Source: Acidobacteriota bacterium
Lineage (GTDB): Bacteria > Acidobacteriota > UBA6911 > RPQK01 > JAJDTT01
Direction of reading: 5' to 3'
Length of the DNA: 64,000 nucleotides
Assembly (NCBI GenBank): GCA_965217775.1
Contig: CBDCJH010000002.1
Location: forward strand, 2,336,001 to 2,400,000
Positions 1-63,562 of the stretch are shown here, one piece after another. Position 1 is the stretch's first letter. The number at the start of each line of letters is the position of its first letter. Under the pieces are notes generated by a model. It saw only the letters and a list, made by a program, of their open reading frames with translations, did no database searches and had not been told where the DNA came from. A program made the position numbers and the translations under genes.

Positions 1-2610
1 CGAGAGTTCGATCGGGCCATCAGCAGGTGGGTGGTGCGAGACAGCGAGGGGATCTGCTACCTCCTGACGGCCAGGAGGGGACCCGGGGGACGGGCCGGCT
101 TCGCACTTCGAATCTCAAAAAACACCAGACCTCGATCCCTGGAGGATTTTCTTCCCCCGGCCGACCTCGTCCCTCCCCGGAGTGCCCAAGAATCGATGGA
201 CTGCGCCGGCATGGCTCTTGATGGCGCCGGACGTCTTCATTTTGTCTGGAGCACTGAAAAGGGTCTTTCCGGTTACAGCTTGATGAGCCTGGATCGACTC
301 AAGAGACGCCTGAAGGCTGGAGAGGAGCCACCCTGGGTGAATCCAGCCGACGGGACGCCGGGAGCGCTGATTCTGGCTGAGGCGGCTTCGCTCGTGGGTG
401 ACATCAGGCAGGCGCCCAATGGCGACGTCTGGCTGGCATGGACGGCCGGGGCGGGCGACGACGTCTCCCTCCACCTGGGGAGCACAAGGGGTGGAAAATG
501 GGAAGCTTTCGAAGTCGCGGCCGGAGACAGCCATGCTCCACCCGCGCTTCTCATTGACAGCGGGGGGCGCTTTCACCTGGCGTGGCATAACCGGGAAGGG
601 CGTGGTTTCTATCTCAGCAAAGAGCCTTCGGATCTGCAAGAGACGCTCAAAGGGTCTGCCGTTGAAACCCGGACCTCCTCTTCCGTGCCCGCCGGACCCT
701 GGAGGCTCTGGGCCTATCGGCCGGCCCTGGTGGAGACACCCGCTGGAATACTGGCGGTCCATGAGAGCGGAACCGCGGAGTTGAGATCCGTGTTTCCAGG
801 GGGCGAAAAAAAGCAACACTTTCCTCTTACCGGTGAGGACGAAAGGTTCGCGTGGGATTTCTGTCACTCGCCCCGGTTTGCCCTCGACCGCTACGGCATC
901 CCCTGGGTTTTCTTCATCAACGGCACCCGTCAGCACGTGTTTTACGCCCGCTGGCTGGAAAAGCAGTGGAGTCCGGTCTTGAACGCCTACTGGCTCACGC
1001 GCAATACGCCCAGAATGGATGAAAATCATCTCTCCATCGAGCGGCTGGCGGTGGAGGAGAGAATGGCTGACGAGGCTGAGGGGATCGGCGTCTCCATTAC
1101 CCATGAAAGCCGGTTTCCCCAGACGGCCTATCACACGATGCCGGTCCCGTCTCTAACGGCCACACCCGGAACCACCGTCTTGTTTTTGGACCTGAAGGAG
1201 TTGAAAGCGCTGGACGGTCTGCGCCTGAAGGTCAATGAGGCCACGAAATACGAGGGAAACCCGGTGATCGGGAGGGGAGCAGCCGGTGATTTTGATGCCG
1301 GGGGAGCCTCGCAATTGGGCGTCCTGAAAGAGAACGGCGTGTATCGAATGTGGTATTCGGGGGTCTTCCGCGAGCCCGGGTCCAAGTGGCCCGAGTCGGG
1401 CCCCGTACCCATGCGGCGGATCGGTTACGCGGAGAGTCAGGACGGTTACGATTTCGAGAAAGTCGATCTGGGGATGGTTCCCTTTGGAGGCCGGGAGCGT
1501 ACGAATCTGGTTCCGGGACTTCCCCCGGCCCCGGTTTACAAGCCCATTTTTGCGGGCGGAATCCATCGTGACGCCCACGAGGCGGACCCGGCGAAAAGGT
1601 ACAAACTGCTGAAGTGGGACCGGGATCCCGTCGAAGAATCGAGTGCGCCGCACCTGCCGGAGAGGCAGCGCTGGACCCTGTTCACCTCACCTGACGGAAT
1701 CCAGTGGAGACAGCAGGTGGCAGGAAACATCTCCTTTCCTGCCGGTCAGCCCGGTTCTTTCGTGCCGATGTCCCTTTTCTTCGACGAGGCGGAACAAGAT
1801 CCGGGAAAGAGGTACAAGGCTTACGGTTTCACTTCTCTGAACATCAGCCGCCGCGGGGGCGCCTACGGCTACAGCCCGGATGCCGTTCACTGGACGGGGC
1901 ATCCTCAGAACCCCATTTTTGACCCCTTTGCCCGAAGCATACCCGTCGTGAGAAGCGGAAAGGTGGAACAGATCCATGATGCGGTGGTGTGGAAGCGCCA
2001 CGGCTACTACCTGGCCCTGTATCAATACCAGCACAGCGGTACGAACATGGATGTGGAACTGGCCGCGAGCCGTGACGGAGAGTACTTCGTATTCATCCAG
2101 CCCGGCGAGAAGGTGATCACTCGCGGCGCTCCGGACGCCTGGGACTCGGACATGGTCGCACCGTCCGTGCCCCTGGTGGATGGCGAAGATATCAAGTTGT
2201 ACTACGGAGGCTGGCGCAGTTCGCCCTGGGCGGAAGGACAGCCCTCAGGGGGCGTGGCTACGCTGAGACTGGACGGTTTTACCCATCTGGAGTTGGTGAA
2301 GGACCGGGCTCGAGGGAGTCTTACCACCATTCCCATCGGCCCCGGCACCGCTTCTGAACTTTACGTGAACGCCGACTGCAGCGAGGGCGGCTTTCTGCAA
2401 GTCGAGCTGATCGACCCCGCCTCGGGACGGCCCCTGCCGGGGTATTCCAGAGAGGAGAGTCCCCGGTTCGAGGGGGACTCGTTGGCTTGGAGAGTCGAAT
2501 GGGAGCAAGGAAGAAGCCTCGATAGGCTGAAGGGGGATTCGTTCCAGATCAAGTTCCATCTGGCCGCCACCGGGGGATCCCCCAAACTCTATTCATTTAG
2601 TTTGAAGTAG
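1..2610 (+). CDS. Large beta-propeller glycoside-hydrolase-like protein (GH32/GH43/GH130 clan-like), 5' partial
   Basis: Frame is open from base 1. Repeated blade motifs YRMWYSG...IGYAESQDG, FTSPDGIQW, YSPDAVHW, LAASRDG, and a C-terminal ATLRLDGF...KLYSF beta-sandwich. Confidence 0.7.
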   Translation, partial: REFDRAISRWVVRDSEGICYLLTARRGPGGRAGFALRISKNTRPRSLEDFLPPADLVPPRSAQESMDCAGMALDGAGRLHFVWSTEKGLSGYSLMSLDRLKRRLKAGEEPPWVNPADGTPGALILAEAASLVGDIRQAPNGDVWLAWTAGAGDDVSLHLGSTRGGKWEAFEVAAGDSHAPPALLIDSGGRFHLAWHNREGRGFYLSKEPSDLQETLKGSAVETRTSSSVPAGPWRLWAYRPALVETPAGILAVHESGTAELRSVFPGGEKKQHFPLTGEDERFAWDFCHSPRFALDRYGIPWVFFINGTRQHVFYARWLEKQWSPVLNAYWLTRNTPRMDENHLSIERLAVEERMADEAEGIGVSITHESRFPQTAYHTMPVPSLTATPGTTVLFLDLKELKALDGLRLKVNEATKYEGNPVIGRGAAGDFDAGGASQLGVLKENGVYRMWYSGVFREPGSKWPESGPVPMRRIGYAESQDGYDFEKVDLGMVPFGGRERTNLVPGLPPAPVYKPIFAGGIHRDAHEADPAKRYKLLKWDRDPVEESSAPHLPERQRWTLFTSPDGIQWRQQVAGNISFPAGQPGSFVPMSLFFDEAEQDPGKRYKAYGFTSLNISRRGGAYGYSPDAVHWTGHPQNPIFDPFARSIPVVRSGKVEQIHDAVVWKRHGYYLALYQYQHSGTNMDVELAASRDGEYFVFIQPGEKVITRGAPDAWDSDMVAPSVPLVDGEDIKLYYGGWRSSPWAEGQPSGGVATLRLDGFTHLELVKDRARGSLTTIPIGPGTASELYVNADCSEGGFLQVELIDPASGRPLPGYSREESPRFEGDSLAWRVEWEQGRSLDRLKGDSFQIKFHLAATGGSPKLYSFSLK

Positions 2611-9749: not shown

Positions 9750-9835
9750 GGGAGCGGCGGCTTTCTTGCCGCCGATTGGGAGCGGCGGTTTCCAGCCGCC
9801 GATTGGGAGCGGCGGTTTCTAGCCGCCGAACTCCC
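9750..9835. repeat. Three tandem REP-like palindromes, GGGAGCGGCGG(C/T)TTyyAGCCGCCGA
   Basis: Units at 9750-9777, 9778-9804 and 9805-9830, each a CGGCGG...CCGCCG hairpin; related copies at 14402-14429, 29231-29255 (inverted) and 31437-31461 (inverted). Confidence 0.8.
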
Positions 9836-48978: not shown

Positions 48979-49338
48979 GTCGGGTCGTGATAGGAGTGCT
49001 CCCGTTTTCCAGCACAGTTAGAGTACTTCGTTGACGGGCACTCCGATTGCCTGAACGATCCAGTCGTCAGATCACGGTAGCGGACACCGGCGGTAGCCGT
49101 CGACCTGGCGCGACAAGTAGCTTTCCACCAACCGGACAGGATTCTCCTTAAGTGATTGAAAACATGAGGATCACGAGATCTGAGGATTGGTATCCTATCG
49201 AAAAACGAGCGGGGGCCGCTCTCCGTGGGCAGACGAGGTATTCTTGCAAGAATTCAACGGATCCGTATCACGAGCCGGGAGTAGCAATGATCAGAATTGC
49301 ACAAACTACCGGCTCAACTCGATCTTTGTCCCCTGCAT

Positions 49339-50162
49339 GTACTCAACGCCTTGCGGCATCACTGACTATTGCACCCGTGCTCAAAGGCGGCCCGGAAGTT
49401 ACCCGTGCCGTGCTCAACGCCTTGCGGCATCACTGACTATTGCACGCAGAGAAACGCCAACATCACCGACATCATCAACGAGTGCTCAACGCCTTGCGGC
49501 ATCACTGACTATTGCACCAGACGCAGGCGCGCTCGGATCCAGTACTTTTCGAGTGCTCAACGCCTTGCGGCATCACTGACTATTGCACCTGCACCTGCGG
49601 ATCGAACAGTTCTCCGATCGGTTGTGCTCAACGCCTTGCGGCATCACTGACTATTGCACGTTGGCCGCCCAGATGGTCCAGAGCAACTCGAGCTAGTGCT
49701 CAACGCCTTGCGGCATCACTGACTATTGCACCCGGAAACCGACGCTGGGAACGACTGGATTGATGAGGTGCTCAACGCCTTGCGGCATCACTGACTATTG
49801 CACACGCGGAGTCGTCGCCTATCTCCGGCTGATTGAAAGGTGCTCAACGCCTTGCGGCATCACTGACTATTGCACTCCTCACTTTCGCCGAGCTGGGTGG
49901 AGGACAGTCGAGGTGCTCAACGCCTTGCGGCATCACTGACTATTGCACTCCTCACTTTCGCCGAGCTGGGTGGAGGACAGTCGAGGTGCTCAACGCCTTG
50001 CGGCATCACTGACTATTGCACTCGAGGACGGACGCGACTGCCTCGGCGACGTCCAGTGCTCAACGCCTTGCGGCATCACTGACTATTGCACACGGCCCAG
50101 CGGTCGGTCGAGGGCGGGATCAACATGTGCTCAACGCCTTGCGGCATCACTGACTATTGCAC
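49339..50162 (-). CRISPR. Type I-B (MYXAN) CRISPR array: 12 repeats, 11 spacers
   Basis: 36-bp repeat GTGCAATAGTCAGTGATGCCGCAAGGCGTTGAGCAC (minus strand); spacers 34-37 bp; the distal repeat at 49339 has one mismatch; leader lies on the cas2 side. Confidence 0.98.
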
Positions 50163-50699: not shown

Positions 50700-52336
50700 C
50701 CGCGCAGGCGCATCCGGGCGAACAGACCTTCCTCGCCACTCCATTCCTTTTCCAGCAGCCGTGCCTCCAACTCGATGGAGCGAGCGTAGCTCAAGGAGTA
50801 CTTCAACACGGGATGCTTCCAAGTTTCTTGCTTGCGTTTTTCAAAGAGTCGTATGGCCAGCCGTTTACCCTCATCCGAAAGCCAAACCCGTTTCTTGCTT
50901 ACCTGGAGATGTTGGTCAGTCCATTGCCGCCGGTTGATGGACGCCACCAACGGCATATCCCACAGCGTGGTCCGAAACAGCTCCATCAAGTCCAACACGA
51001 GGGGGTGAGCGGCACTCCGGGGCGCATGGAAGAAACCGATCGTGGAATCCAATCCCACGGCGATGATCGCGCCCATGACCTCACGGTACAGCAGGCCATA
51101 GCCGAATGAGAGGGCAGAATTGAACCCATCACGAGGCGGCCGCCGACTGCGCTGGGAGAACACCATCAATTCCTCCTGAGGGGACAACAGCAGGGCGAGA
51201 GCCGAAAAATAGTTGCGCGCCGCAATGCCTTCACAACCACGCAAGGCACCAGCGTTGGCACAATGCTGTACTTGTCGGAGCTGTGCGCGTATGGCGATCA
51301 GGGATTTTCTCGCCTCATCTCTTACGCCACGGACGCGAGAATGTCGGATAATGAACCGCAACTGGTTTTCGATTTTGGCTTTCGCCAGACGGCGCGCCAA
51401 GCGCAGGCACAATTCCTTGTTCTGCAATGCCCGGTACTGTCGGAGACGGCGGTGAGTGCCCGCAGGCGGGGCCACGCCGCCGACGTACCAGCCGCCACCG
51501 CTGATCCAGTGGACGCCAATATCGTTGGCGGCGGAGAAGTGGATAGCCTGCGATGTGATTTGTGCGTTACCGTGCAAGATGACGGCTCCGACATCCATGC
51601 CGGGAAACTTCTTTTCCTCTCCGTCCAGCTTGCGCACGACGAGCTGCAAGCCGGAACGTCTGACCTGCGCCCCATGATCCACGATGTGCAGCACCCGGCG
51701 AGCGTCGTCCTTCGGAAAGAGGCGGCGGGGCTTCGAGATGGGGTCCAATGCTTCGGCCTCGCTGGCCGCAGCAGCCAAGCGTGACTCTTCCGGGAGGCAG
51801 ACCGGAGCGAGCGAACACTTGGCGCACAAATTCTCGTTGCTCGTCACCGGCGGACGCTCCAGGGAAGCCGACAATTCCCGGGCGCGAGCCACCGCGCGTC
51901 GCAATCGCTCCCGGGCCGCGTCATCGATGACGACACGCACCGTCGTATTGCTGGCGTGGTATCGGATGCGTCCCTCGGAAACCGGCCTCCCGAAATGTTC
52001 GGAAAGGAGCTCGGCGTAGGCCGTCACCTGGATTTTGTCCGTTTCCCACGCATCATTCCCTTTCGAGCGTCCTTTCTTGTGTTCGACGGCGATGAACTTT
52101 CCGTCGCGATAGCGAGCGAAGTCCACCTTGCCCCGAATACCCCAGGTGTCACTCGAAAGCTCCAGGCTCCGCCATTCCCGATTCTTATCTACTTCTGAGT
52201 CATGCAGGGTACGCCCGGCGTGCACGCGGTGGTCGGCTACACGAATTTCTTCCACTTCCTCCAGATAGAACAGGCGCTCGCAATACGCGAGTGCATGCAA
52301 CGCCATGACACGAATGGGCATTTTGGTGTCACTCAC
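50696..52336 (-). CDS. cas1: Cas4-Cas1 fusion (MYXAN type)
   Basis: Cas4: HALAYCERLFY, GKVD, VEHKKG, CAKCSLAPVC. Cas1: LRGCEGIAARNYF, RSRRPPRD.FNSALSFGY, GFFH, LDLMELFR. Confidence 0.95.
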   Translation of the reverse strand: MSDTKMPIRVMALHALAYCERLFYLEEVEEIRVADHRVHAGRTLHDSEVDKNREWRSLELSSDTWGIRGKVDFARYRDGKFIAVEHKKGRSKGNDAWETDKIQVTAYAELLSEHFGRPVSEGRIRYHASNTTVRVVIDDAARERLRRAVARARELSASLERPPVTSNENLCAKCSLAPVCLPEESRLAAAASEAEALDPISKPRRLFPKDDARRVLHIVDHGAQVRRSGLQLVVRKLDGEEKKFPGMDVGAVILHGNAQITSQAIHFSAANDIGVHWISGGGWYVGGVAPPAGTHRRLRQYRALQNKELCLRLARRLAKAKIENQLRFIIRHSRVRGVRDEARKSLIAIRAQLRQVQHCANAGALRGCEGIAARNYFSALALLLSPQEELMVFSQRSRRPPRDGFNSALSFGYGLLYREVMGAIIAVGLDSTIGFFHAPRSAAHPLVLDLMELFRTTLWDMPLVASINRRQWTDQHLQVSKKRVWLSDEGKRLAIRLFEKRKQETWKHPVLKYSLSYARSIELEARLLEKEWSGEEGLFARMRLRG

Positions 52337-58472: not shown

Positions 58473-59701
58473 GGGTGCACGACACGAAAGTGGCGCTGGA
58501 GGTGAAGTTCAGGCAACGTCAGGGATTGGGCACGCTCCTCGCTGACAGTTATAGTAACTGTCAGCGAGGAGCGTGCCCATGTCCCCAGACCTTTCCCCTC
58601 AGCTCCAACTCCAACGACGACGCCAGCAGTTATTGCAGGCCTTGCTCGAACTCGGCGATCTCCGGCCTGGGTCTCTAGTGGCCCGTTACCGCCATTGTGG
58701 CAAGCCCAACTGTCACTGCGCCTAGCCCGGCGACCGGGGCCACGGGCCCAGTTTCTCCTTGACCCGTCGCGTGGCGGGCAAGACCGTGACCAAGATCATT
58801 CCCCCGGGGCCAGCCGTCCAACGGACTCGAGAGCAGATCGACGAGTATCGCCGATTGCGGAGCTTGGTGAAGGAGTTGGTGGAGGTCAGCGAGCAAATTT
58901 GTCAGGCCAAGCTGGACGCCTCTCCGGCCCGGACGGGCCAAAAAAAGGGCTCCAAAAAACGCTGGCCCAAGAAATCCAGCGAGAAGTCCGGACCCTGATG
59001 GGACCCGCGGCCGCCGCCGCCCTGGACTTTGAAGCGCTGGAGACAGCCCTCCGGCGTCAAGTTCTCGAGCTGGCGGCCCGGACGGTGGAAACGCATCTGA
59101 ACCAGGATCATTCCGACGCCACTCCCAGCCATAACTGCTCCTATGGAGGGAGCGCGCGCTACGCGGGTCGGCGGACCAAACAGTTCGTCACCGTGCTGGG
59201 ACCGATGCGATTGGCGCGCGCCCACTATCACTGTGGGGATTGCGGCCATGGCTTCTGTCCCCGAGATCGAGCGCTGGGACTGGAGGGGAGTTCTTTGTCT
59301 CCCGCGCTGATGCGGATGGTGGGGGCAGTTGCCTCCATGGTCAGCTTTCAGGAAAGCAGTCAGTTGTTGGAGGAGTTGGCCGGAGTGGACGTAGGAACCA
59401 AACAGGTGCAGCGGTCGGCCCAGGCTCTGGGAGAGCAAGTCGCGGGCTATGAGCGCCAGACCCGGGAGCCCGACTCGGGGCTCCCCTTGCCCGCGACCCT
59501 CTATCTGGGCTTGGACGGCACCGGCGTGCCGATGCGATCGACCGAGGTTCAGGGGCGGGCGGGCAAACAACCCGACGGGTCGGCCCGAACCCGGGAAGCC
59601 AAGCTCTGTACGGTCTGGAGTGCCGAGCGACGGGACGCGGAGGGTCGGCCCCAGCGCGACCCGGGCTCGGTCACTTACACCGCGGCCATCGAGAGCGCGG
59701 C
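58473..59701 (+). mobile_element. ISKra4-family element, 3' truncated
   Basis: Left end GGGTGCACGAC; DUF6788-like orf followed by a DDE transposase frame (RAHYHC..CGHG.CP.D..L, LYLGLDGTGVP, TREAK) that is cut after IESAA. Confidence 0.75.
58579..58998 (+). pseudogene. DUF6788-like accessory orf of the ISKra4 element, with premature TAG
   Basis: LGDLRPGSL..RYRHCGKPNCHCA*...GHGP...GKTVT; TAG at 58723-58725. Confidence 0.7.
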
Positions 59702-59887
59702 CGTATTTTCGGCGATGAGGTGATGGCCGCCGCGCTCTTGGATTGGTTGCTCCACCGCTGCCACATCGGCAACATCCGGAGCAACATCTATCGGATGCGC
59801 CGCCACGCCGAACTCTCCAAGGCGATCCATCCCGCCGCCGGTCGAAGACCTGCTGAACCTCTCGCCGCCCGGGGAACCGTGTCATGA
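59702..59887 (+). pseudogene. istB: IS21-family istB 3' fragment
   Basis: Reads RIFGDEVMAAALLDWLLHRCHIGNIRSNIYRMR, matching the IstB C-terminal motif GD...A.A.LDRL.H......I.G.SYR. Confidence 0.75.
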
Positions 59888-60141
59888 CAGCCCCCAGGGT
59901 TCCGTCGGTCTGCCCCGCTTCGGTCGCTCCACTCCCTACGCGGGCCAGACCGAAAACCCTGATATTTTCGATGTTATGTGGAACTCAACATAACATCCAA
60001 TATGTTGCGGTCCGGATTATGTGGCGGACAGTCCGTATCATCCTGCTGCACATGAGAACACGCCGTATCTCAGCAACATAATTATCTGACTGGAAGTCGT
60101 TCGACCATAATCATGTCTTCACCCCACAAGGAGGCACGATC

Positions 60142-61435
60142 AGGTTCGAGGCCCTGTTCATCGACCGCGGCACGATAGCCCGTTATCGCTGCGAACCGTT
60201 GCTGGAAGAACGGCTGAGCTACCTGAGGCATTGCGCGCAGGAGGGCGCGCGGCCGCTCACATTACGCACGATCGCAGCGGCTCAGATCACGCTGATTCGT
60301 CTTCTGGACTTGCGAGCAGGCGAGCGCGTCAGCGTGCCCCGGATCGAGGCGGCGGCCGAACGTCGATCGAGTCGCCCGGCGCAACCGAGGGTGCGCCGGA
60401 TCTTCGTCAGCCGCGCAGTGCGATGGCTACGCTTCGCGGATCTGCTCGATGAGCCCTGTAGGGTGCGGCAACGACACGCCCACGTCGCCGAGGTCACGGT
60501 CTTCCGGGAGTGGATGCGCAAAGAGCGCGGATGGTCCGAGGCGACGATCCGCAATTGTTGCCATACGATTGACCGCTTCTTCGACTGGCTCGGCGAGTGG
60601 GGCATTGCCCTGGATGCGGTCGTTGTCACCGACATCGACCGGGCTGTCATGCGCTGGCACGGCCGCGGCTGCAGTCGGAGCACGATCCGCATTTACGGGC
60701 AGCGTCTGCGCACTTTTTTCCGGTTCGCCGAACGCCATGGCTGGTGTACACGGGGGCTGGCTGACGGGATCATGCCGGTGCGGTTCCATCCCGGTGAGAC
60801 GCTCCCGAAGGGACTCAACCGGGACGAGGTGCTACGCCTGCTCGCAACCACCGAGGGCAACCGGCAGGCCGACCTTCGCGACCGTGCCATCCTGATGGTG
60901 CTGATCGCGTACGGGTTGCGTGCCAGCGAGGTCGCCGGCCTCCGACTCGATGATCCGGACTGGGAAGAGGAGACGCTACGGGTACGCCGCCCCAAGTCGG
61001 GATGCACCCATCACTATCCGCTTTCCCGCGGCGTCGGGCAGGCGATCGTGCGTTACCTCACCGAGGTTCGTCCCCCGCGCCCGGAGAGGGCGCGCCTTGG
61101 CGCGTTGAATCGCCGCGTCCTGCGCCGTTCGTCCCCCGCGCCCGGAGAGGGCGCTGTTCCTCACGCTGATCGCTCCGACCCGTCCGGTGACCCGGTAGGC
61201 AGTTTCGAACGTCGTCAGGACACGCCTCGATCGGCTCGGTATCACCGGCAAGCGTCGCGGTGCCCATGCGCTTCGTCATGCTGCCGCCCAGCACCTGCTC
61301 GACCACGGCCTGTCGATCAAGGAGGTCGGCGATTACCTCGGCCATCGCAGCACCTCGTCCACCGCAGTGTACGCCAAGGTGCAACTCAGCACCCTCCGTG
61401 AGGTCGCCGACATCGACCTGGAGGGCCTGACATGA
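60142..61435 (+). pseudogene. RitA tyrosine recombinase, disrupted
   Basis: RDRAIL...YGLRASEV, then after a 61-bp insertion HALRH...LGH...VYAK in another frame; TAG at 61196-61198; AGG where ATG is expected after GGAGG. Confidence 0.85.
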
Positions 61436-62385
61436 TGCTCCGGGATGCGGTCAACGACTATATCGCCTGGCGTCAGGCCCATGGCGCCAAGTTCGACACC
61501 GGCGCATATCTATTGCACCGGTTCCTGAAGCATGTCGGCGGGAGCGCCGGCTGCGATGCTGTCTCCCCAGCCGACGTTCTGGACTTCCTTGCCGGTAAAG
61601 GTCCGCTCACCCGGTATCGGGCCGGCAAGTACAGCGTCCTGGCCGGCTTCTACCGCTACGCGATCAGCCGCAGCTACGTGATCCGGTCGCCGCTTCCGGC
61701 GCGCGATGATGAGCCGACTCGACCGCGGTCGTCACCACCTTACGTGTACTCCCGTAACGAGTTGCAACGCTTGTTCGACGCCATCGATGTCAGTCGGCAA
61801 CGTTCAATCCAGCTCGACGCCGATACCCTGCGGGCACTGCTCCAGCTTCTCTACGGCGCGGGACTGCGATTCGGTGAGGCCCAGCGCCTGACCCTCGACG
61901 ATGTGGACCTGCCCGATGCGCTGCTGACCATACGTAACACCAAGTTCTACAAGACCCGCCTCGTTCCCGTCTGCCGGCAACTTGCCGACGCGCTGAAGAC
62001 CTATGCCGCCCGGCGCGCAGAACGCCCCTTCCCCAAGGGCACGGCCTCGACCTTCCTCGCCAACCGCGACGGGACGCCCTTGGTCCAGCGCACCGCCGCG
62101 CACGCGTTCACCAAGCTGCTCAAGGAGGCCGGAATCGAAGGTCGCAACGACGGGCGGCGAGCTCCGTGCTTTCATTCCCTGCGCCATGCCGCAGCCGTAC
62201 ACCGGCTGGAGTCCTGGTACCGGCAGGGCGCCGATGTCCAGCGACTGCTGCCGACGCTATCCATCTGGCTCGGCCACACTGATCTCAACGGCACCCGGAT
62301 CTATCTGTCGATGACGCCCGAACTCCTGCATCAGGCTTCGGTCCGTTTCGACGCCTACGTCAACGGAGGAGGAGACCATGAGTGA
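61432..62385 (+). CDS. RitB tyrosine recombinase
   Basis: PYVYS, LYGAGLRFGEA, TKFYKTRLVP, HSLRH, WLGH, TRIYL. Confidence 0.9.
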   Translation: MMLRDAVNDYIAWRQAHGAKFDTGAYLLHRFLKHVGGSAGCDAVSPADVLDFLAGKGPLTRYRAGKYSVLAGFYRYAISRSYVIRSPLPARDDEPTRPRSSPPYVYSRNELQRLFDAIDVSRQRSIQLDADTLRALLQLLYGAGLRFGEAQRLTLDDVDLPDALLTIRNTKFYKTRLVPVCRQLADALKTYAARRAERPFPKGTASTFLANRDGTPLVQRTAAHAFTKLLKEAGIEGRNDGRRAPCFHSLRHAAAVHRLESWYRQGADVQRLLPTLSIWLGHTDLNGTRIYLSMTPELLHQASVRFDAYVNGGGDHE

Positions 62386-63373
62386 TCCCCGCACGCTCGG
62401 CCCCTGGCTGCGCCGATTCCTGGCCGAATACATCGTCACCGAGCGCAACCTCGCCCGCAACACACAGAAGAGCTACCGCGATACCTTCGCACTCCTGCTG
62501 CCGTTCGTCGGCGCCAAGGCCCGCAAGCCAGTCGAACGGATCGCGGTGCAGGACCTCACGGCCCGGCACGTGCGCCAGTTCCTCGACTATCTCGAGGATG
62601 ACCGCGGCTGCTCCGTGCAGACCCGCAACCAGCGGCTGTCGGCGATCCGCGCCTTCGCACGCTTCATCGCCAGCCGCGATCCCGAACCTATCGAGTGGAG
62701 CGGCAGTATCCGTGCGATTGCCTCGAAGAAGGCCGTGCCGAAGCCGATCGGCTGGCTCAGCAAGACCGAGATGAAGGACCTGCTCGAGGCCCCGGACCGC
62801 CGAACGCCGAGAGGCCGGGTCGAACACGCCCTGCTCCTGTTCCTCTACAACACCGGGGCACGCGTCTCCGAAACGACTCAGCTCGTGGCAGGCGATCTGC
62901 AAATCGGACGACGCGGCGGCGGGCAAGCGCTCGTCAACATCCACGGCAAGGGCCGAAAACACCGACAGTGTCCGCTGTGGCCCCGGACCGAAGCCGCGCT
63001 CACCGAGCTCTTGCAGGGACGGGCAGCCGGGGATGCCGTCTTCCTCAGCCGGCAGCGAAGAGCCTATACTCGGTTCGGAGTCTACCGGCTCGTCGAGCGC
63101 TCTGCGGCCCGCGTACCGTCGCTCGGCGGAAGGAGGATTACGCCTCACACAATCCGTCACACCAGCGCCTGCCACCTGCTCCAGGCCGGCATCGATCTGA
63201 ACACGATCCGCGCTTGGCTCGGTCATGCCAGCCTCGATACGACCAACATCTACGCCGAGATCGACCTGGAGATGAAAGCCAGGGCCATGGCGCTCTGCGA
63301 TGCCGCCGAGCCCGGATCGGATCGCCCGTGGAGGGCAAACATGGGACTGATCGCCTTCCTGGCCGCGCTCTGA
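62378..63373 (+). CDS. RitC tyrosine recombinase
   Basis: SYRDTF, TRNQRL.AIR.F, YNTGARVSE, GKGRK.R, PHTIRH, WLGHASLDTTNIYA. Confidence 0.9.
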   Translation: MSDPRTLGPWLRRFLAEYIVTERNLARNTQKSYRDTFALLLPFVGAKARKPVERIAVQDLTARHVRQFLDYLEDDRGCSVQTRNQRLSAIRAFARFIASRDPEPIEWSGSIRAIASKKAVPKPIGWLSKTEMKDLLEAPDRRTPRGRVEHALLLFLYNTGARVSETTQLVAGDLQIGRRGGGQALVNIHGKGRKHRQCPLWPRTEAALTELLQGRAAGDAVFLSRQRRAYTRFGVYRLVERSAARVPSLGGRRITPHTIRHTSACHLLQAGIDLNTIRAWLGHASLDTTNIYAEIDLEMKARAMALCDAAEPGSDRPWRANMGLIAFLAAL

Positions 63374-63562
63374 GTGAAGGAGATTATGTTGCTGAGATGC
63401 GGCGTGTTCTCATGTGCAGCAGGATGATACGGACTGTCCGCCACATAATCCGGACCGCAACATATTCGATGGTCATTGACAGCTCGCGAGCGCAGATTCT
63501 TACTTCGCCATCGAACGGTCAATGCGCATTTCGACCCGCACGGCCAAGTCCGAGCTTCCTGA

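What the first reader, a model, noticed from the sequence alone, without database searches (positions are those of the whole stretch)
61066..61154. Repeat-spacer-repeat scar inside ritA with type I-E Cas1-Cas2 geometry (natural neo-CRISPR)
Seen: GTTCGTCCCCCGCGCCCGGAGAGGGCGC (28 bp) occurs identically at 61066-61093 and 61127-61154, separated by a unique 33-bp insert GCCTTGGCGCGTTGAATCGCCGCGTCCTGCGCC. Removing 61 bp restores the RitA frame (EVRPPRPERALFLTL). Established: E. coli type I-E Cas1-Cas2 inserts 33-bp protospacers whose first base is the PAM-derived G and duplicates 28 bp, and off-target integration into repeat-like sites has been shown experimentally. The insert starts with G, and the duplicated site matches the first 28 nt of the E. 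coli repeat at 14/28 ungapped positions, including the CCC.CGC...CGG.GA core. Inference: ectopic spacer acquisition knocked out a mobile-element recombinase. The I-B system in this window (36-bp repeats, 34-37-bp spacers) does not fit these sizes, so another integrase is implied.
Basis: partly seen in the sequence, partly recalled or inferred. Interest (0 to 1): 0.8.

Follow-up and report, generated by a model that had tools for sequence, protein, structure and literature searches.

The report
Stray CRISPR spacer inside a recombinase gene
A 61-base insertion that breaks a mobile-element recombinase gene has the size and internal landmarks of a spacer insertion by the bacterium's own type I-E CRISPR machinery, making it a rare natural example of CRISPR memory written into the wrong place.

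Summary
In detail: an exact 28-bp direct repeat (61066-61093, 61127-61154) flanks a 33-bp insert that is unique in the genome. The 61 bp are a derived insertion. They are absent from the sister RIT copy in this genome, from 4 RIT copies in 2 congeners, and from related contigs in 4 of 4 public runs laid.

The genome has two type I-E loci with full-length Cas1e and Cas2e. Their arrays have the same unit: 18 of 19 and 37 of 39 native units are 28+33 bp.

Read on the minus strand, the duplicated 28-mer carries GCGGG at positions 16-20, as both native repeats do. This is the published I-E ruler anchor, 8 nt before the cut, and 0.42% of genomic 28-mers match by chance.

Caveats:
- No protospacer was found, but native spacers find none either.
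- ritA carries a second lesion, a TAG stop.
- The assembly's own reads were not available.

Three older 61-bp scars lie at REP-like palindromes. Their CRISPR origin is less certain.

Verdict: ectopic I-E spacer integration, confidence about 0.8.

The parts
61127..61154 (-). Copy of the duplicated 28-bp target; the leader-proximal 'neo-repeat' if read on the minus strand
   Evidence: Exact 28-bp repeat. On the minus strand GCGGG lies at positions 16-20 (plus-strand 61135-61139).
61094..61126 (-). 33-bp insert, the presumed spacer; starts with G in both orientations
   Evidence: Unique in the genome. Absent from all other RIT copies examined. Same length as 18 of 19 and 37 of 39 native units when the repeat is taken as 28 bp.
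61066..61093 (-). Second copy of the duplicated 28-bp target (leader-distal if read on the minus strand)
   Evidence: GCGGG on the minus strand equals plus-strand 61074-61078. A 6-bp palindrome with a 5-nt loop fills one end of the 28-mer.
60199..61435 (+). ritA, first tyrosine recombinase of the RIT trio, now a pseudogene; the insert sits inside the catalytic domain
   Evidence: The N-terminal 298 aa match PF00589 (8.5e-13) and a SAM-like N-terminal domain. The frame is broken by the 61 bp.
61196..61198 (+). Second, independent lesion: TAG stop in the restored ritA frame
   Evidence: The sister copy has CAG. In the 4 runs laid, contigs read C (X15, X3) or A (X1, X4) at 61196.
61432..62385 (+). 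ritB, tyrosine recombinase, open frame
   Evidence: 317-aa ORF; PF00589 at 8.4e-24.
62378..63373 (+). ritC, tyrosine recombinase, open frame
   Evidence: 331-aa ORF; PF00589 at 2e-27.
60000..60082 (.). Left 83-bp terminal inverted repeat of the RIT element
   Evidence: Inverted repeat I1, 99% complementary to 63383-63465.
63383..63465 (.). Right 83-bp terminal inverted repeat of the RIT element

Best explanation
A type I-E Cas1-Cas2 integrase encoded elsewhere in this genome (locus A near C2:872 kb or locus B near C2:3.41 Mb) inserted a 33-bp prespacer into a repeat-mimicking site inside ritA. Shown: the two staggered cuts were 28 bp apart, and gap repair duplicated the 28-bp target, giving repeat-spacer-repeat (28+33+28). 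Inferred: the enzyme docked on the minus strand, where a GCGGG motif sits at positions 16-20 of the 28-mer. The IR2 ruler therefore placed the distal cut 8 nt after the motif, as in a real repeat. A 6-bp GC palindrome at the other end of the site may have helped recruitment. The product is a dead scar rather than a working mini-array. Its hairpin is out of register with the native repeat hairpin, and it lies antisense inside a gene. The event is recent: the copies are identical and the insert is private to one RIT copy of this genome. It is one of two lesions in ritA.
For: - Derived insertion. The 61 bp are missing from the sister RIT copy (97-99% identical). They are missing from 4 of 4 full-site RIT copies in congeners (G007 x3, G004 x1; the flank matches overlap by 25-26 nt). 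They are also missing from related contigs in 4 of 4 runs laid, from 4 studies, each of which joins 61065 to 61127.
- Geometry. Exactly 28+33 bp. Native array A has 18 of 19 units of 28+33 and array B has 37 of 39.
- Enzymes. Cas1e scores 358 and 276 bits (cut-off 215.6) and Cas2e 119 and 99 bits (cut-off 33), with no internal stops.
- Ruler test taken from the literature before it was applied. In E. coli I-E, GCGGG anchors a ruler and the cut falls 8 nt after the motif's end, giving a 28-bp repeat (Goren 2016, PMC5039180, passages read). Both native repeats and the ritA site (minus strand) have GCGGG at 16-20. The chance for a genomic 28-mer in either orientation is 0.42%.
- Overall identity to repeat A in register is 15/28 (top 0.39% per strand).
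- The insert starts with G, as do 19 of 19 array A spacers.
- The insert matches nothing in the host genome, like all 58 native spacers.
- No other exact repeat of 18 bp or more at a 61-bp spacing exists outside the arrays.
- Non-CRISPR inverted repeats attract E. coli Cas1-Cas2 in vitro (Moch 2017, PMC5389526, passages citing Nunez 2015). The site contains a perfect 6-bp palindrome.
Against: - No protospacer was found, so no PAM could be read. The control shows the collections have no power here.
- The IR1 anchor is weak at this site on the minus strand: 4 of 7 positions by eye, with no CCCC at positions 6-9.
- Overall similarity to the repeats is modest, and tens of thousands of genomic 28-mers score as well.
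- In E. coli, integration in vivo also uses a leader and IHF. No leader-like sequence was looked for or seen here.
- G-first holds in both orientations and has about a 0.3 chance each.
- No reads of this assembly were available, and no run laid shows the insert itself.
- A similar 60-bp duplication at a REP site occurs in G005, which has no I-E cas2 and only a 36-bp-repeat array. Some non-CRISPR process that makes scars of about 60 bp therefore cannot be excluded.
Confidence: 0.8

Rival explanations
1. A hairpin- or palindrome-associated repair or replication process unrelated to CRISPR (staggered break, filler DNA, fill-in) duplicated the target and inserted about 32-33 bp. The match to the I-E unit is a coincidence.
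For: The ritA site and the three REP-linked sites all contain GC-rich palindromes. G005 carries an independent 60-bp duplication at the same REP nucleotide as X1 but has no I-E Cas2, no I-E-like repeats, and only a 36-bp-repeat array. No PAM or protospacer is available to tie the insert to CRISPR adaptation.
Against: No known repair process gives a fixed 28-bp duplication with a fixed 33-bp filler. The period is 61 in 4 of 4 loci in this genome, while neighbouring non-multiple-of-3 spacings give 0-1. GCGGG lies in the exact ruler register at ritA (p about 0.004). G at position 1 plus CCCC at 6-9 lies in the IR1 register at the REP sites. I-E systems occur in 3 of the 7 genomes of this genus tested for Cas2e (G000, G006, G002), so past presence in the G005 lineage is plausible.
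Confidence: 0.13
2. Assembly or sequencing artefact: the 61 bp do not exist in the organism.
For: Two near-identical RIT copies could confuse an assembler. No public run holding this stretch in full was served (best share of sampled words 0.43). No laid contig contains the insert. Single-base indels between the copies could be sequencing errors.
Against: Artefacts do not create a novel 33-mer flanked by a perfect 28-bp duplication. The assembly is in 2 contigs. The insert has no source elsewhere in the assembly from which it could have been mis-joined.
Confidence: 0.04
3. The repeat-insert-repeat is ancestral, and all other RIT copies lost it by recombination between the 28-bp repeats.
For: Deletion between 28-bp direct repeats is easy and would leave exactly one copy.
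Against: It would need independent loss, or loss before all duplications, in every other copy: the sister, 4 copies in congeners, and 4 of 4 runs. The insert also breaks the frame inside the conserved catalytic domain, so the inserted form cannot be the functional ancestor.
Confidence: 0.01
4. The window's own type I-B Cas1-Cas2 made the insertion.
For: It lies only about 9-11 kb away in the same window (cas1 at window 50837-51691; array at 49330-50162).
Against: Its array has a period of 71-72 bp with 36-bp repeats. A 28-bp duplication and a 33-bp insert fit neither figure.
Confidence: 0.02

Closest known systems
Neo-CRISPR / off-target spacer integration by E. coli type I-E Cas1-Cas2 (Nivala, Shipman and Church 2018)
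   Same: A spacer-sized DNA is integrated outside an array, which can seed new repeat-spacer-repeat units. Citing papers report genome-wide off-target events on Cas1-Cas2 overproduction and circumstantial natural evidence in two other species (passages).
   Different: That work used overexpressed enzymes and supplied oligonucleotides. Here the event is natural, lies inside a gene, and has empty-site comparators in the same genome and in relatives. The primary paper was not held, so its target motifs could not be compared.
Canonical type I-E spacer acquisition with two molecular rulers (Goren et al. 2016, PMC5039180)
   Same: A 28-bp duplicated repeat, and a GCGGG anchor in IR2 placed 8 nt before the distal cut. 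Both hold for the ritA site on the minus strand.
   Different: There is no leader, no array context and only a weak IR1 anchor. The hairpin of the new repeat is shifted to positions 1-17, against about 5-22 in the native repeats.
In vitro integration next to non-CRISPR inverted repeats (Nunez et al. 2015, as cited by Moch et al. 2017, PMC5389526) and off-target integration by P. furiosus Cas1-Cas2 (PMC6698737)
   Same: Palindromic or repeat-like non-CRISPR sites are used (passages). The ritA site and the three REP-linked sites contain GC palindromes.
   Different: Those are plasmid assays and mostly half-site events. Moch et al. also found that the plasmid palindrome alone does not give stable Cas1-Cas2 binding.
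Transposon or IS target-site duplication and excision footprints
   Same: A direct duplication of the target flanks inserted DNA.
   Different: By general knowledge (recalled), target duplications of IS elements and transposons are about 2-15 bp. A 33-bp single-copy insert has no terminal repeats, no coding capacity and no other copy in the genome.

Membership tests
Type I-E Cas1-Cas2 integration product (ectopic, 'neo-CRISPR') | 28-bp duplication of the target | tested here: met
   Exact 28 bp, with sharp boundaries on both sides. The 28-bp wild-type repeat is stated in PMC5039180.
Type I-E Cas1-Cas2 integration product (ectopic, 'neo-CRISPR') | Insert of the native spacer length (33 bp when the repeat is counted as 28 bp) | tested here: met
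   The insert is 33 bp. Native units: 18 of 19 (array A) and 37 of 39 (array B) are 33 bp.
Type I-E Cas1-Cas2 integration product (ectopic, 'neo-CRISPR') | Cas1e and Cas2e encoded in the same genome | tested here: met
   Two loci. TIGR03638 scores 358 and 276 bits; TIGR01873 scores 119 and 99 bits. No internal stops.
Type I-E Cas1-Cas2 integration product (ectopic, 'neo-CRISPR') | IR2 anchor (GCGGG) ending 8 nt before the distal cut | tested here: met
   On the minus strand GCGGG is at positions 16-20 of 28, identical to repeats A and B. The chance is 0.42%.
Type I-E Cas1-Cas2 integration product (ectopic, 'neo-CRISPR') | IR1 anchor (CCCCGCG-like) ending 16 nt before the distal cut | tested here: not met
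   The minus strand has no CCCC at positions 6-9. The plus strand has CCCCGCG, but it ends at position 14, which is 2 nt out of register (sequence; rule).
Type I-E Cas1-Cas2 integration product (ectopic, 'neo-CRISPR') | PAM-derived first base of the insert (G in array A) | tested here: met
   The insert starts with G in both orientations, and array A spacers start with G in 19 of 19 cases. This is weak evidence: the chance is about 0.3 per orientation.
Type I-E Cas1-Cas2 integration product (ectopic, 'neo-CRISPR') | Protospacer in foreign DNA, flanked by the PAM | tested here: inconclusive
   No exact match in viral, genome or metagenome contigs. Only chance-level hits (E of 0.9 or more) in phages and plasmids. 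0 of 60 relatives match at up to 3 mismatches. Native array A spacers also find no protospacer.
Type I-E Cas1-Cas2 integration product (ectopic, 'neo-CRISPR') | Leader or IHF site next to the integration site | not tested
   The site lies inside GC-rich coding sequence. No scan for a leader motif or an IHF site was made.
Functional CRISPR array | Repeat hairpin in the register that Cas6e recognises, and a transcribed crRNA | tested here: not met
   Native repeats fold with a stem over about positions 5-22 and a 4-nt loop. The neo-repeat folds over positions 1-17 (minus strand) or 12-28 (plus strand). Transcription cannot be tested here.
RIT element (recombinase in trio) | Three adjacent tyrosine recombinase genes bounded by long terminal inverted repeats, in several copies | tested here: met
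   Three PF00589 proteins in a row. 83-bp inverted repeats. Further copies in G000, G007 and G004. The name and definition of RIT are recalled, not taken from a call.

The most novel reading that the evidence does not exclude
Ectopic type I-E spacer integration is a recurrent natural mutational process in this lineage, not a one-off. Besides ritA, the genome carries three older scars of the same 61-bp period at REP-like palindromes whose arm mimics the repeat's 5' end (G at position 1, CCCC at positions 6-9). Two of them have clean empty sites in congeners, and a fifth, independent event sits at the same REP nucleotide in another species. REP-type palindromes would then be natural landing pads where new CRISPR arrays could be seeded, and Cas1-Cas2 would be a source of gene-disrupting insertions.
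Probability: 0.35. Interest if true: 0.8.

Novelty: new member of a known kind. Interest (0 to 1): 0.62.

Why it matters
- Off-target integration by Cas1-Cas2 is known from overexpression experiments. According to the passages read in a preprint that cites that work, natural evidence was only circumstantial.
- This locus gives a clean natural before-and-after pair. The intact target is available in a sister copy and in relatives, the boundaries are exact, the matching integrases are in the same genome, and the published ruler anchor is in register.
- It shows that CRISPR adaptation can inactivate genes, here a gene of a mobile element.
- It offers concrete target sequences for testing what a non-E. 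coli I-E integrase needs in a target.
- If the REP-linked scars are confirmed, they would bear on how new arrays arise and on the genomic cost of carrying an adaptation module.

Tried and rejected
- **Protospacer search for the 33-mer.** Exact scans of viral, genome and metagenome contigs found nothing. blastn against phages and plasmids gave only chance-level hits, E of 0.9 or more. 0 of 60 relatives match at up to 3 mismatches.
- **Fillers of X1-X3.** No exact match in viral contigs.
- **Power control.** The whole of array A against phages and plasmids gave only 60-80% identity matches to other arrays and no protospacer-level hit. The negatives above therefore say little.
- **Insert derived from host or REP sequence.** Rejected for ritA, X1 and X3. 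The X2 filler has only weak partial REP-like hits.
- **Reads.** No run holds the stretch in full. The four runs laid show only insert-free relatives, so the junctions themselves remain unconfirmed.
- **X3 empty site.** G007, G002 and G003 have one REP arm at the orthologous spot, but the flank differs, so this is inconclusive.
- **Correlation of scars with I-E presence in congeners.** It does not hold simply. G005 and G007 lack Cas2e, while G006 and G002 have it.
- **I-B origin.** Rejected on size.
- **Loss in all other copies.** Rejected.
- **Literature not held.** The Nivala 2018 and Nunez 2015 primary papers are not held, so only citing passages were read. Supplements of papers were not consulted.
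- **Third RIT copy.** The diverged copy at C2:3539444-3542018 aligns too loosely across the site to count. The gap differs by about 58 nt.

Full report
**1. The observation.** Window 61066-61093 and 61127-61154 are identical 28-mers, 61 bp apart start to start. The bases flanking the two copies differ on both sides, so the repeat is exactly 28 bp and the piece between is exactly 33 bp. The window is G000:C2:2336001-2400000 of a 6.43-Mb, 62% G+C genome in 2 contigs. In that genome the 28-mer occurs three times, the third at C2:1691360. The 33-mer occurs once, and none of its 16-mers recurs. Outside the native arrays, this is the only exact direct repeat of 18 bp or more at a 61-bp spacing.

**2. 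The setting.**
- The repeat lies in the first of three adjacent tyrosine-recombinase genes. The N-terminal part of ritA, ritB and ritC all match PF00589.
- The trio is bounded by 83-bp inverted repeats at 60000-60082 and 63383-63465. This is the layout I recall as a RIT element.
- The insert sits in the RitA catalytic domain, near profile position 85 of 172.

**3. Polarity: the 61 bp are an insertion.**
- A second RIT copy (C2:1689048-1692452, minus strand) is 97-99% identical and has a single 28-mer and no 33-mer.
- Four further copies in congeners (three in G007, one in G004) match window 60700-61091 and 61127-61500 with 25-26 nt of overlap, so they also lack exactly 61 bp. G005 holds only a partial RIT remnant that does not reach the site.
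- In 4 of 4 public runs laid, from 4 studies, one contig each joins 61065 directly to 61127. No laid contig shows the insert.
- The insert is therefore derived, private to this one copy, and younger than the split from G007, the closest congener by identity at the loci compared.

**4. A second lesion.**
- With the 61 bp removed, the local frame reads through (...ERALFLTL...). It then stops at a TAG at 61196-61198.
- The sister copy has CAG there. The laid contigs read C or A at 61196.
- The sister ritA is itself frameshifted by a 1-bp deletion at the position equivalent to 60415.
- The claim that the insertion knocked out the recombinase therefore cannot be made. Either lesion may have come first.

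**5. The predicted integrase exists.**
- The I-B array in the window has 36-bp repeats and a 71-72-bp period, which does not fit.
- The genome has two type I-E loci:

| | Locus A | Locus B |
|---|---|---|
| Cas1e | 312 aa, TIGR03638 358 bits | 296 aa, 276 bits |
| Cas2e | 119 bits | 99 bits |
| Other | Cas6e and Cse1, near C2:872-878 kb | weak Cse1 and Cas6e matches below cut-off, near C2:3.40-3.41 Mb |
| Repeats detected in the array | 20 | 40 |
| Array coordinates | C2:870897-872130 | C2:3408480-3410888 |

- Both arrays have a 61-bp period.
- Taking the repeat as 28 bp, 18 of 19 array A units and 37 of 39 array B units have 33-bp spacers. All 19 array A spacers start with G, and 24 of 39 array B spacers start with C.
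- None of the 58 native spacers has a significant match in the host genome, and neither does the insert.

**6. Does the site look like a repeat?**
- In the register fixed by the duplication, identity is 15/28 to repeat A and 14/28 to repeat B, in either orientation. 0.39% of genomic 28-mers per strand reach 15/28 to repeat A.
- A sharper test comes from the literature. In E. coli I-E, the wild-type repeat is 28 bp. A GCGGG motif in the distal inverted repeat anchors a ruler, and the spacer enters 8 nt after the motif's end. A CCCCGCG motif in the proximal inverted repeat anchors a 16-nt ruler (Goren et al. 2016, PMC5039180, passages read).
- Both native repeats here have GCGGG at positions 16-20. 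So does the ritA 28-mer read on the minus strand. Only 0.42% of genomic 28-mers do so in at least one orientation.
- The proximal anchor is not in register on that strand.
- The functional orientation is thus probably the minus strand. There the insert again begins with G.
- The 28-mer also contains a perfect 6-bp GC palindrome with a 5-nt loop, which fills positions 1-17 on the minus strand. Non-CRISPR inverted repeats were reported as frequent in vitro integration sites. The same paper found such a palindrome insufficient for stable binding (Moch et al. 2017, PMC5389526, passages).

**7. What could not be shown.**
- No protospacer was found for the 33-mer: exact scans of three contig collections, blastn against phages and plasmids, and 60 relatives at up to 3 mismatches. 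No PAM could therefore be read.
- Used as a control, array A finds no protospacer-level hit either. This negative carries little weight.
The best run holds 0.43 of the sampled words.
- The neo-repeat hairpin is out of register with the native one, so a working crRNA is unlikely.

**8. An extension beyond the finding.** I scanned for 28-nt windows at least 24-25/28 identical at spacings of 45-80 bp, outside the arrays and not tandem.
- This gave four loci at 61 bp, against 0-3 at other spacings that are not multiples of 3, and 0-1 at 58, 59, 62, 64 and 65 bp.
- Besides ritA the loci are X1 (C2:399559), X2 (C2:3039473) and X3 (C2:5056681). Each has a 29-bp block with 2-3 mismatches and a 32-nt filler that is unique in the genome.
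- Each block straddles the end of a high-copy REP-like palindrome and its unique flank.
- X1 has clean empty sites in G007 and G006.
- X2 has clean empty sites in G006, G002 and G005, and apparently G003. G007 shares the insertion.
- X3 is inconclusive.
- All three, in one orientation, have G at position 1 and CCCC at positions 6-9, like repeat A. None has GCGGG in register.
- G005 has an independent duplication that starts at the same REP nucleotide as X1. It has a 26-bp exact block, a 60-bp period and a different filler.

**9. Evidence against the extension.**
- G005 (99% complete, one contig) has no I-E Cas2, no I-E-like repeats, and only a Cas1 next to a 36-bp-repeat array of period 72-73.
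- G007 likewise lacks I-E: it has a 32-bp repeat with period 66-67. G007 could have inherited X2.
- I-E Cas2e was found in 3 of the 7 genomes of the genus tested (G000, G006, G002), so loss in the G005 lineage is plausible but not shown.
- The REP arms resemble G....CCCC by their nature.
- I therefore hold the REP-linked scars as a lead, with probability about 0.35 that they reflect recurrent I-E activity. They do not weaken the ritA case, which rests on its own geometry and anchor.

**10. Comparison with what is known.**
- Off-target integration by overproduced E. coli Cas1-Cas2, the term 'neo-CRISPR', and circumstantial natural cases in two other species are attributed to Nivala et al. 2018. 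I know this only from passages in citing papers. The paper itself was not held.
- A search for 'neo-CRISPR' found 1 paper and a search for the Nivala title found 10 citing papers. I read passages of five of them, and none describes a natural case inside a gene with an empty-site comparator.
- I cannot claim that no such case is in print. Subscription papers and supplements were not searchable.
- I file the finding as a new member of a known kind.

**11. Verdict.** Confidence in ectopic I-E integration is 0.8. Interest is 0.62.

Noticed in passing
G000 C2:399559-399648, C2:3039473-3039562 and C2:5056681-5056770 (outside the window): Three more repeat-filler-repeat units of 61-bp period: 29-bp blocks with 2-3 mismatches and 32-nt unique fillers, each at the edge of a REP-like palindrome. 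Two have clean empty sites in congeners.
   Followed up: partly
L016 (G005:C1:687114-690925), minus strand, index 1856-1944: An independent 26-bp exact duplication with a 60-bp period, starting at the same REP nucleotide as X1 but with a different filler. The genome has no I-E cas2 and only a 36-bp-repeat array.
   Followed up: partly
window 61196-61198; sister copy at the equivalents of window 60415 and 62495: Both RIT copies are decaying. The window ritA has a private TAG. The sister ritA has a 1-bp deletion, and the sister has an extra T inside ritC. The single-base indels could also be sequencing errors.
   Followed up: partly
G000 C2:3408480-3410888 and C2:3411613-3411762: Array B contains duplicated spacers: two adjacent pairs repeated, one tandem duplicate, and one near-duplicate between the start and the end of the array. 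About 700 bp downstream lies a 3-repeat mini-array with a variant repeat, also of 61-bp period.
   Followed up: no
L013:125-300 (G000 C2:5056424-5056599) and many other places: An element of about 160 bp is present at 93-100% identity in very many copies in G000 and in all 8 congeners. It looks like a very active MITE-like repeat.
   Followed up: no
window 49330-50162 and 50837-51691: A type I-B-like array (36-bp repeat, period 71-72) and a strong Cas1 match (261 bits) lie about 9-11 kb upstream of the RIT element.
   Followed up: no
window 58695-59723: A 342-aa ORF lies immediately left of the RIT element, with long overlapping antisense ORFs. It may be a transposase-like gene. It was not examined.
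   Followed up: no
genome-wide, e.g. C2:940400, C2:4661511 and window 9750-9829: Several distinct families of short GC-rich palindromic (REP-like) repeats form tandem clusters at spacings of 52-54 and 104 bp.
   Followed up: no
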